DNA of 64,000 nt from a virus. Numbering within the stretch: the first letter of the stretch is position 1; every line of letters starts with the position of its first letter. Shown piece by piece: positions 18,490-19,538 of this stretch. The position numbers were made by a program, and so were the translations under genes. The notes under the pieces were generated by a model. That model was not told the DNA's origin, searched no databases, and saw nothing but the letters and a program-made list of their open reading frames with translations. The DNA lies in the IMG/VR virus record IMGVR_UViG_3300030497_000008, positions 32,001 to 96,000 of that record, one strand, 5' to 3'.

Positions 18490-18498
18490 TATCATCCT

Positions 18499-18573
18499 TT
18501 CAATTATCGTAACTCATACTCAACCAAATATACGGTTGACTACACCTACCTAAGCAGGGAGACGATAGTTGAA
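18499..18573 (+). ncRNA. unassigned multi-stem RNA
   Basis: TTCAATTATCGT/ACGATAGTTGAA closing stem enclosing TCAACC/GGTTGA and CCT/AGG hairpins. Confidence 0.45.
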
Positions 18574-18579
18574 TTTCAT

Positions 18580-18652
18580 GGGTTAGTGGCTTGGTTAGCT
18601 CAGAAGCCTTGAAACAGCATCTGCGATGGTTCAATCCCATCTCTACCCACCA
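18580..18652 (+). pseudogene. atypical tRNA-like element (anticodon ambiguous, TTG or TGA)
   Basis: Perfect T-arm GATGG-TTCAATC-CCATC and 3' ACCA; shrunken D-arm, elongated anticodon arm, 1-nt variable loop. Confidence 0.6.
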
Positions 18653-18655
18653 CAT

Positions 18656-18820: not shown

Positions 18821-19392
18821 GGGGATATAGTGTAGAGGTAAACACGCAAAAAGGAGCAGTAAAATGCCGACTTGTAAAAAATGTAATGTAGATTTTCCAA
18901 ACTTCATGAAAATAGAAGGTAAACGTCGCAATTTACAAAAACGTCAGTATTGTGTTGATTGCAGTCCTTTTGGTAGACGTAATACAAAACAGATACATTT
19001 AGATAACAACAAAGAGATTGAGTGTACTTGTACCTTATGTGGTAAAGATTATGTATATGCTCGTAGTACAGGATGCACAAAGACTAAATGTAACACTTGT
19101 TGCGTTAGGGTTAATAGACAGAAACTGAAAATCAGAGCGGTAGAGTATAAAGGTGGCGCTTGTCAACGCTGTGGCTATAACAAAAGTTATAGAGCCTTAC
19201 AATTTCACCATCTAGACCCAGAAGAGAAAGATTTTCAGATAGGCGGAAAAGTTATTCTATGGGATAAAATCAAAAAAGAATTAGATAAATGTATTTTACT
19301 ATGCGCTAACTGCCATCTTGAAGAACACGAATCTCTTGATAACCTTAAATTACGTCTACCGTGAAGCACGGGTTCGAACCCCGTTATCCTCG
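18821..19392 (+). pseudogene. trnD: tRNA-Asp (GTC) split by an HNH gene; 5' half 18821-18848, 3' half 19354-19392
   Basis: Acceptor GGGGATA/TATCCTC-G, D-arm GTGT/ACAC, T-arm ACGGG-TTCGAAC-CCCGT, anticodon remnant GTCTA-CCGTG. Confidence 0.85.
18864..19364 (+). CDS. HNH endonuclease with N-terminal zinc fingers
   Basis: KGGACQRCGY..ALQFHHLDP..CILLCANCHLEEH; SD AAGGAG. Confidence 0.92.
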   Translation: MPTCKKCNVDFPNFMKIEGKRRNLQKRQYCVDCSPFGRRNTKQIHLDNNKEIECTCTLCGKDYVYARSTGCTKTKCNTCCVRVNRQKLKIRAVEYKGGACQRCGYNKSYRALQFHHLDPEEKDFQIGGKVILWDKIKKELDKCILLCANCHLEEHESLDNLKLRLP

Positions 19393-19403
19393 TAAACTAT
19401 AAA

Positions 19404-19516
19404 ATCTCAGTCATGTTGAGATAGCTTAGGCGAAACCCTAAGCAAAGCATGTCCGTCCTAAGGAGACATTATAAAAAGAAGGCAAACATGACGTGGCGAG
19501 CTATCCGCAGACACGT
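19404..19516 (+). ncRNA. unassigned pseudoknotted structured RNA
   Basis: Four hairpins plus two exact loop-mediated complementarities (8 and 7 nt). Confidence 0.55.
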
Positions 19517-19538
19517 AAAAGAATAGATAGTGATACAT

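What the first reader, a model, noticed from the sequence alone, without database searches (positions are those of the whole stretch)
19404..19516. Pseudoknotted or switch-like RNA directly downstream of the split tRNA
Seen: hairpins ATCTCA/TGAGAT, GCTTAGG/CCTAAGC, ATGTC..TCC/GGAGACAT and ACGTG-GCG/CGC..CACGT. The first loop region GTCATGTT (19410-19417) is the exact complement of AACATGAC (19485-19492). The last loop AGCTATC (19499-19505) is the exact complement of GATAGCT (19420-19426). The two long-range helices cross each other and partly compete with the local stems. Inference: a functional ncRNA (ribozyme, processing element, or partner of the HNH) that I cannot assign to a known family.
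Basis: partly seen in the sequence, partly recalled or inferred. Interest (0 to 1): 0.72.

Follow-up and report, generated by a model that had tools for sequence, protein, structure and literature searches.

The report
Pseudoknotted small RNA in phage tRNA cluster
A roughly 140-base stretch between two tRNA genes of a Bacillus cereus-group phage encodes a conserved, tightly folded RNA with two probable pseudoknots that matches no known RNA family, has moved between unrelated phages, and has nothing to do with the neighbouring HNH gene; its job is still unknown.

Summary
All hairpins and both exact long-range complements lie at the stated coordinates, and exact inverted complements are commoner than in shuffles (4 or more exact 7-mers in 0.45% of shuffles). 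The stretch 19394-19537 is one unit with about nine distinct relatives, all in B. cereus-group phages. The full element occurs in Bastillevirinae myophages (Maceta, W.Ph., Crookii) and in two Sejongvirinae-like contigs of about 80 kb. Its 44-nt 3' module occurs alone between tRNA-Asn and tRNA-Asp in Thrax1-like phages.

Across seven relatives, 95% of proposed pair cells are standard pairs, against 26-44% in slid controls. Eight pairs changed on both sides, and the intermediates are G.U on the + strand. The loops are invariant.

The best model has hairpins P1-P4. The P1 loop pairs with AACAUGA (invariant, so untested by covariation). The P4 loop pairs with the 3' tail GAUAGU, where four of six pairs covary, giving an H-type pseudoknot.

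Rfam gives no match. The HNH gene is a recent insertion absent from most carriers. No protein gene co-occurs with the element. The short ORF after the start-site-like sequence is not conserved.

Most likely this is a stable non-coding RNA processed out of the tRNA transcript, with an unknown target. It is a new RNA family of moderate interest.

The parts
19394..19403 (+). 5' single-stranded leader AAACUAUAAA. It starts 1 nt after the tRNA-Asp 3' end (G19392).
   Evidence: Nine of ten positions are invariant in 8 sequences. The element begins here in all contexts, even where the upstream sequence differs (L033, L056).
19404..19422 (+). P1 hairpin: 6 bp (AUCUCA/UGAGAU) with an invariant 7-nt loop GUCAUGU (19410-19416).
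   Evidence: 100% of cells are paired. Pairs 2 and 3 changed on both sides, and pair 5 runs C-G > U.G > U-A.
19424..19443 (+). P2 hairpin: 7 bp with an invariant 6-nt loop CGAAAC.
   Evidence: 100% of cells are paired. Pairs 1 and 2 changed on both sides (G-C/A-U/G.U and C-G/U-A/U.G). Run contigs X4 and X5 show G19424A together with C19443T.
19449..19469 (+). P3 hairpin: 5 bp (AUGUC/GACAU). The first seven loop bases, CGUCCUA, are invariant.
   Evidence: The third pair is G-C in the window clade and A-U in all others.
19470..19484 (+). A-rich linker UAUAAAAAGAAGGCA (Shine-Dalgarno-like GAAGG, 5 nt before an AUG).
   Evidence: Nearly invariant. The short ORF that follows is not conserved (MT*, MMS*, MTS*, or 10-12 aa).
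19485..19492 (+). 3' strand of PK1 (AACAUGAC). It pairs with the P1 loop at 19410-19417.
   Evidence: All eight pairs are kept in 7 sequences. The only change is C>U in L056, which gives G.U. The helix is invariant, so it is supported by conservation only.
19491..19516 (+). P4 hairpin: outer stem (A)CGUG/CACG(U), inner stem GCG/CGC, a 3-nt bulge, and the loop A-GCUAUC.
   Evidence: The outer stem changed on both sides in W.Ph. (G-C > A-U), L056 and L122 (C-G > U-A, G-C > C-G). There is one A.C cell, in Crookii.
19517..19531 (+). A-rich loop AAAAGAAUA followed by GAUAGU, the 3' strand of PK2. GAUAGU pairs with the P4 loop GCUAUC (19500-19505), giving an H-type pseudoknot.
   Evidence: Four of six pairs changed on both sides. 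L033 reads CUGUU/AACAG. The first pair is G.U, G-C or A-U (T19531C).
19532..19537 (+). Short spacer before tRNA-Leu (which starts at 19538).
   Evidence: Conservation among distant relatives ends here.

Best explanation
The stretch 19394-19537 encodes a non-coding RNA of about 140 nt on the + strand. It is made as part of the phage's tRNA-array transcript. It is most likely set free by the enzymes that trim the flanking tRNAs: RNase Z after CCA-less tRNA-Asp and RNase P before tRNA-Leu.

The RNA has two modules. The 5' domain holds P1, P2, P3 and an A-rich linker, and the P1 loop pairs with AACAUGA (PK1). The 3' module holds P4, whose loop pairs with the tail GAUAGU across an A-rich loop (PK2, H-type). 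PK1 abuts P4, so P1, PK1, P4 and PK2 could stack into one compact, nuclease-resistant body.

The invariant loops (GUCAUGU, CGAAAC, CGUCCUA) and the invariant linker are the likely contact surfaces for a host or phage partner that is not yet known. The gene is accessory and moves horizontally among B. cereus-group phages, with tRNA-Asp nearby in most contexts.

Shown: conservation, + strand base pairing, modularity, sporadic distribution, independence from the HNH gene. Inferred: transcription, processing, stability, action in trans.
For: Structure:
- 95.4% of 259 pair cells are standard pairs, against 26-44% when partners are slid. Eight pairs changed on both sides, and 0-1 of 500 shuffles reach the observed values.
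- The 3' module alone gives 91.9% paired and six pairs changed on both sides.
- Intermediates are G.U on the + strand. On the other strand they would be A.C.
- Of the 25 variable columns in the 5' domain, 13 fall in stems, and L1 and L2 never vary.

Transcription context:
- The element is always on the tRNA strand inside tRNA or tRNA-like arrays.
- In W.Ph. and Crookii it is the last unit before an intrinsic terminator.
- In L033 and L056 it lies in a 1.2-kb ORF-free array that starts at a TTGACA-17-TAAGAT promoter and, in L056, is followed by a terminator-like hairpin with a T-run.

Mobility and selection:
- The element is the strongest, and in two of four comparisons the only, nucleotide match between the 80-kb siphophage genomes and the 160-kb myophage genomes.
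- It is absent from close relatives: Zuko, pW4, Basilisk and about 20 other Bastillevirinae.

Modularity:
- The 3' module stands alone in Thrax1 and L054.
- It is swapped for a divergent version in L122.

Precedent: T4 makes two small RNAs of unknown role from its tRNA region (PMC3014915). ROOL and GOLLD lie near phage tRNA islands (10.1101/2024.12.08.627333).
Against: There are no expression data of any kind. There are only about nine distinct sequences in a few lineages, so the covariation counts are suggestive rather than statistically decisive, and related rows can beat shuffles without any structure. PK1 has no informative covariation. The 10-nt single-stranded 5' end would be open to RNase J1. 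The 3' module alone, sitting in a 51-nt tRNA spacer, looks more like a cis element than part of a trans-acting RNA. No target or partner has been found.
Confidence: 0.55

Rival explanations
1. It is a cis-acting processing or stability element of the tRNA array. The pseudoknots would insulate the folding of neighbouring tRNAs, position RNase P/Z/Y cuts, or block exonucleases such as RNase J1. The RNA has no function once it is released.
For: The 44-nt 3' module alone fills the spacer between tRNA-Asn and tRNA-Asp in Thrax1 and L054, ending 5-6 nt before the next tRNA. In the window it ends 6 nt before tRNA-Leu. The element starts 1 nt after tRNA-Asp.
Against: In W.Ph. and Crookii nothing but a terminator follows. 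In L033 no canonical tRNA flanks it. Most related phages process the same tRNA-Asp without it. Loops that never vary across phage families are more than a roadblock would need.
Confidence: 0.2
2. It is a conformational switch. The P4 loop would pair either with the upstream GAUAGC (melting parts of P1 and P2) or with the 3' tail GAUAGU, driven by a ligand, by temperature, or by the order of transcription.
For: Both partners are complementary to the loop. The upstream helix is 87.8% paired, with two pairs changed on both sides. In L033 the loop changes keep wobble pairing with the upstream strand and Watson-Crick pairing with the tail.
Against: The upstream helix is broken in Maceta (A.C). There the G>A change is compensated inside P2 instead. 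The upstream helix is weak in the recombinant L122 (-3.1 kcal/mol), and it cannot exist where the module stands alone. No regulated gene or expression platform follows.
Confidence: 0.08
3. It is a self-cleaving ribozyme that frees a tRNA end, analogous to the HDV-like theta ribozymes found downstream of phage tRNAs.
For: It sits directly after a CCA-less tRNA, has crossing helices, and has invariant unpaired bases. There is precedent in PMC10879173.
Against: No ribozyme family matches, even at E<=10. The helix order does not fit HDV: two hairpins lie between the crossing strands, and P1 does not start at the tRNA end. In L033 it is not next to a canonical tRNA.
Confidence: 0.06
4. It is translation-related. 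It could be a leader with a mini-ORF, or a mimic of a start site (SD-like GAAGG, 5 nt, AUG) whose AUG is held by a CAU-containing 7-nt loop resembling an anticodon loop. Either way it would engage 30S subunits.
For: The linker and the AUG are invariant and have canonical spacing. The P1 loop reads GU-CAU-GU.
Against: The ORF is not conserved in length or sequence: a stop at codon 3 or 4 in four lineages and 10-12 codons in the others. The 8-bp loop-target helix is far longer than a codon-anticodon pair. No coding gene follows.
Confidence: 0.05
5. It is not a functional RNA. It would be a decayed tRNA remnant, a DNA-level site (for example a recombination or endonuclease target), or chance palindromes.
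For: tRNA arrays in these phages do carry decayed tRNAs. The fold of the minus strand is also stable (z -2.9).
Against: There are compensatory changes in five helices with G.U intermediates on one strand only. There is no tRNA signal. The element is conserved across otherwise unrelated phage genomes.
Confidence: 0.03

Closest known systems
[quoted passage not shown]
   Same: They are small non-tRNA RNAs encoded on the tRNA strand inside a phage tRNA cluster, presumably matured with the tRNAs. Their role is unknown.
   Different: The host and phage lineage differ. No sequence comparison could be made here, because no T4 sequence was at hand. Pseudoknots are not, to my knowledge, a described feature of the T4 RNAs.
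ROOL and GOLLD large phage ncRNAs (10.1101/2024.12.08.627333)
   Same: They are phage or prophage encoded, often near tRNA islands, rich in pseudoknots, with no protein partner known and no known function.
   Different: They are 4-6 times larger (about 580 nt to over 800 nt) and form multimeric cages. Rfam finds no match to them here. Oligomerisation of this RNA is pure speculation.
HDV-like theta ribozymes downstream of phage tRNAs (PMC10879173)
   Same: They lie immediately 3' of a phage tRNA and have crossing (pseudoknotted) helices.
   Different: No HDV-family model matches. The helix order and size differ. The proposed first helix does not begin at the tRNA 3' end. Cleavage has not been tested.
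Classical H-type pseudoknots with an A-rich third loop (e.g. preQ1-I riboswitch aptamers; from my own knowledge)
   Same: The 3' module has the same topology: a stem, loop bases pairing with a downstream strand, and a 9-nt A-rich loop able to lie in the stem's minor groove.
   Different: No Rfam hit. The stem is longer (8 bp with a bulge). The module lies between tRNAs rather than in an mRNA leader. There is no sign of a ligand.
phi29 pRNA (packaging RNA of Bacillus podophages; from my own knowledge)
   Same: It is a Bacillus-phage small RNA of similar size whose function depends on loop-loop complementarity.
   Different: The phage families are unrelated. There is no Rfam pRNA match. Here the complementary partners are a loop and a linear strand, and intramolecular pairing is the simpler reading.

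Membership tests
Any Rfam 15 family | Score at or above the family's gathering threshold, or at least a consistent sub-threshold hit across homologues | tested here: not met
   Only tRNAs pass in the window and in L033, L056 and L122. With E<=10 on the element in three homologues, the hits are unrelated noise and differ from one homologue to the next.
tRNA / tRNA-like | Cloverleaf with acceptor stem, T-arm and anticodon arm | tested here: not met
   ARAGORN and the Rfam tRNA model find nothing in 19394-19537. A closing stem ACUAU/AUAGU is not kept in L033 or L056.
HDV-like / theta ribozyme | Nested double pseudoknot in which P1 starts at the cleavage site directly after the tRNA | tested here: not met
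   No HDV-clan hit at E<=10. The first long-range strand starts 18 nt after the tRNA end, and two hairpins lie between the crossing strands.
HDV-like / theta ribozyme | Site-specific self-cleavage | not testable with these tools
   This needs an in vitro transcription and cleavage assay.
HNH-associated RNA (partner of the adjacent HNH gene) | Co-occurrence with the HNH gene | tested here: not met
   The HNH gene is present only in the window and L123. It is absent next to the element in Maceta, L121, L122, W.Ph., Crookii, L033 and L056. No protein gene is shared by all four carriers compared (own, W.Ph., L033, L056) and absent from the non-carriers Zuko and pW4.
Small RNA of a phage tRNA cluster (T4 RNAC/RNAD kind) | Encoded on the tRNA strand within the tRNA transcription unit | tested here: met
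Small RNA of a phage tRNA cluster (T4 RNAC/RNAD kind) | Accumulates as a discrete stable RNA | not testable with these tools
   No RNA run is listed for this sequence.
ROOL / GOLLD | Match to the family model; length of about 580 nt to over 800 nt | tested here: not met
   No Rfam hit in the window or in the 1.2-kb arrays of L033 and L056. The conserved unit is about 140 nt.
Leader peptide / small protein gene | Conserved ORF | tested here: not met
   The ORF after the AUG at 19488 is 12 aa here, 10 aa in L033, 2 aa in W.Ph. and Crookii, and 3 aa in L056 and L122.

The most novel reading that the evidence does not exclude
The RNA is an active machine rather than a passive small RNA. One possibility is a new class of self-cleaving ribozyme acting on the tRNA array. 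Another is an RNA that assembles with copies of itself. That would make it a miniature counterpart of the ROOL/GOLLD cages or of phi29 pRNA rings. Covariation cannot tell contacts within a molecule from contacts between molecules.
Probability: 0.1. Interest if true: 0.85.

Novelty: new variant of a known kind. Interest (0 to 1): 0.57.

Why it matters
Phage tRNA arrays are now seen as tools against host tRNA-targeting defences and for taking over translation. The non-tRNA RNAs embedded in them (T4 RNAC/RNAD, ROOL, GOLLD) remain unexplained. This element is small enough for full mutational and structural study. It lies in cultivable phages (Maceta, W.Ph.) of a tractable host, B. thuringiensis. 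Natural presence/absence pairs (W.Ph. versus Zuko) and a natural module swap (L122) already exist. It has also crossed between unrelated phage families under strong constraint on its loops, which argues that it does something useful for the phage. It is a practical entry point to what such RNAs do.

Tried and rejected
- Rfam at gathering and at E<=10 on three homologues: nothing.
- Wider homologue hunts: six pattern or protein-anchored scans of IMG/VR, one of metagenomes and one of species genomes. Together they gave only L015, L033, L043, L054, L056 and L112; all other matches were chance.
- Covariance-model search of 29 whole phage records with the 3' module model: no extra copies.
- pW4 and Basilisk, close kin of L056: no element.
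- Expression: no RNA holder is listed among public runs. The DNA contigs laid on the stretch gave only variants and revealed the module swap.
- Partner protein: ORF comparison of four carrier and two non-carrier genomes found no gene that tracks the element. The two partial candidates have no informative Pfam match.
- A closing stem ACUAU/AUAGU that would give a giant cloverleaf: not conserved.
- A promoter reading of the 5' ...CTATAAAAT: no usable -35 at the right spacing, and the upstream sequence differs between contexts.
- The peptide reading was rejected, as described above.
- The RNAalifold consensus chose the loop 4-tail helix as a plain hairpin without P4. This was rejected because the outer stem of P4 also covaries.

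Full report
**What the window is.** The window is part of a 161-kb Bacillus phage genome. Its nearest named relative is phage Maceta (Herelleviridae, Bastillevirinae). The finding lies in a tRNA array on the + strand: tRNA-Asn, Trp, Ser, then Asp, then Leu, Tyr, and further on Ser. The tRNA-Asp is interrupted by a 166-aa HNH ORF at 18864-19364 (Pfam HNH).

In Maceta the same tRNA-Asp is intact. The 144 bases between it and tRNA-Leu are 96% identical to window 19394-19537. So the finding is the whole spacer between tRNA-Asp (which ends at G19392) and tRNA-Leu (which starts at 19538).

**Observation.**
- In 2000 dinucleotide shuffles of the 144 bases, an exact 8-mer inverted complement appears in 3.9%.
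- Four or more exact 7-mer pairs, as observed, appear in 0.45%.
- The MFE z-score is -2.3 on the + strand and -2.9 on the - strand.

**Relatives.**
- blastn against 50,697 phage records finds the full element only in Maceta, Crookii and W.Ph. It finds the last 44 bases at 95% identity in the unrelated B. anthracis phage Thrax1.
- Pattern scans plus a covariance model add IMG/VR contigs L015 (identical to Maceta over the element), L043 (W.Ph.-like), L033 and L056 (= metagenome contig L112). They also add L054, a Thrax1-like contig with the 3' module only.
- L056 has a terminase 95% identical to those of the 80-kb B. cereus siphophages PBC4 and pW4 (Sejongvirinae). pW4 and Basilisk themselves lack the element.
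- The element is also absent from Zuko, where tRNA-Asp runs straight into a terminator. It is absent from about 20 other Bastillevirinae genomes searched whole or around the portal gene.
- Between the 80-kb and 160-kb genomes the element is the strongest nucleotide match, and in two of four comparisons the only one.
- Logan contigs gave three more loci. L121 is Maceta-like. L123 is window-like and carries the HNH gene. L122 has the window's 5' domain (99% identical) joined to the divergent 3' module of the L056 type, plus about 80 extra bases before tRNA-Leu.

The family therefore has about nine distinct sequences. It has two separable modules and a sporadic distribution that points to horizontal transfer.

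**Structure.** Explicit segmentation gave these results:
- P1 has 6 bp and no broken pair in 7 sequences. Pair 2 is U-A or C-G, pair 3 is C-G or U-A, and pair 5 runs C-G, U.G, U-A.
- P2 has 7 bp and none broken. Pair 1 is G-C, A-U or G.U. Pair 2 is C-G, U.G or U-A. Pair 4 is U-A or U.G.
- P3 has 5 bp, and pair 3 is G-C or A-U.
- The outer stem of P4 reads CGUG/CACG here, CGUA/UACG in W.Ph., and AUGUCG/CGACAU and CGUCG/CGACG in L056 and L122. Crookii has one A.C cell.
- The P4 loop GCUAUC pairs with GAUAGU nine bases downstream of the stem. The first pair is G.U, G-C or A-U, and L033 reads CUGUU/AACAG.

The counting tool was run on a MAFFT alignment that had not been fitted to the structure.
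- It gives 95.4% paired cells, against 26-44% for slid partners.
- Eight pairs changed on both sides, and 0-1 of 500 shuffles reached the observed values.
- For the 3' module with Thrax1 and L054 added, it gives 91.9% paired and six pairs changed on both sides, four of them in the loop-tail helix.
- Independent contigs show G19424A together with C19443T, and T19531C.

All intermediates are G.U on the + strand, so the folded molecule is + strand RNA. Substitutions concentrate in stems: 13 of the 25 variable columns of the 5' domain. L1, L2, the first seven bases of L3 and nearly all of the linker never change.

- GUCAUGUU with AACAUGAC is kept in all sequences. The only change is C>U in L056, which gives G.U. 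This is consistent with pairing but carries no covariation signal. Geometrically a 6-bp version (19411-19416 with 19486-19491), with one loop base left over, is a normal H-type pseudoknot, and it would stack directly on P4. This point is inference.
- AGCUAUC with the upstream GAUAGCU is 87.8% paired, with two pairs changed on both sides. However, it overlaps P1 and P2, which both covary. It has an A.C mismatch in Maceta, where the change is compensated within P2 instead. It is weak in the recombinant L122. It cannot exist in Thrax1 or L054.
- The loop's better partner is therefore the 3' tail. The upstream pairing remains a possible alternative fold.

Both pseudoknot units share one design: a hairpin, a 7-nt loop, an A-rich run containing AAAAGAA, and then the strand complementary to the loop (read directly from the sequence).

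**What it is not.**
- It is not any Rfam family.
- It is not a tRNA.
- It is not a peptide gene. The ORF after the Shine-Dalgarno-like GAAGG-N5-AUG is 12, 10, 3 or 2 codons long in different lineages.
- It is not tied to the HNH gene, which is absent from most carriers.
- No protein gene tracks the element in a comparison of four carrier genomes with two non-carriers.

**Context and likely mechanism.** The element is always on the tRNA strand.
- In the window, Maceta and L122 it sits between tRNA-Asp and tRNA-Leu.
- In W.Ph. and Crookii it is followed by a vestige of the tRNA-Leu 5' end and a strong terminator.
- In L056 it follows tRNA-Asp and a tRNA-like unit.
- In L033 it follows that tRNA-like unit, inside an ORF-free array that starts at a good sigma-A-type promoter; the homologous array in L056 is followed by a terminator-like hairpin with a T-run.

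The simplest reading is a small RNA co-transcribed with the tRNAs, released by RNase Z and RNase P, and folded into a compact double-pseudoknot body. Its invariant loops would bind something in trans. Precedents for unexplained RNAs in phage tRNA regions are T4 RNAC/RNAD (PMC3014915) and ROOL/GOLLD (10.1101/2024.12.08.627333). The rivals are a cis processing or stability element, a switch, a ribozyme in the manner of theta ribozymes (PMC10879173), and a start-site mimic. They are listed with the evidence for and against each. None can be excluded without experiments, and no expression data exist.

**Verdict.** One long-range partner is reassigned, and the HNH link is refuted. It is a new RNA family of a known general kind, with unknown function and moderate interest.

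Noticed in passing
window 18821-19392: The HNH ORF (18864-19364) replaces about 5 nt (CGGCT) of the 5' anticodon stem and loop of tRNA-Asp, compared with the intact gene in Maceta. No intron-like RNA structure is evident. The same insertion is in Logan contig L123, but not in L121 or L122. It looks like a recent insertion of a free-standing homing endonuclease that inactivates the tRNA.
   Followed up: partly
L033:4230-5350 and L056:5660-6850: The two Sejongvirinae-like contigs carry conserved ORF-free arrays of about 1.1-1.2 kb. L033's begins at a TTGACA-17-TAAGAT promoter, and L056's is followed by a terminator-like hairpin with a T-run. Each holds several tRNA-like units with good T-arms and acceptor-like ends, one ending ...GUCACCA. 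ARAGORN and the Rfam tRNA model do not call these units; ARAGORN finds no tRNA at all in L033.
   Followed up: no
L003:1641-1700 and L002:1638-1697: In W.Ph. and Crookii the element is followed by ATGCCGA, the first bases of the tRNA-Leu seen in the window, and then by an intrinsic terminator. The Leu-to-Ser segment seems to have been deleted in that lineage.
   Followed up: no
window 18490-18655: Maceta annotates tRNA-Gln and a 'tRNA-Leu' in this gap. ARAGORN finds no tRNA here in the window (in Maceta it confirms the tRNA-Gln but not the 'tRNA-Leu'), so the window seems to hold decayed or atypical tRNA genes. Earlier notes on this stretch call them tRNA mimics.
   Followed up: no
L122:1568-1648: Between the divergent 3' module and tRNA-Leu, L122 has about 80 extra bases with two hairpins. 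Part of this (GGAUACGUCCUG) resembles sequence downstream of the element in L033. The RNA may therefore be longer in that lineage.
   Followed up: no
L122:453-896: A 147-aa ORF lies between tRNA-Asn and tRNA-Gln in this relative and is absent from the window and from L121. It may be another mobile insertion in the tRNA array.
   Followed up: no
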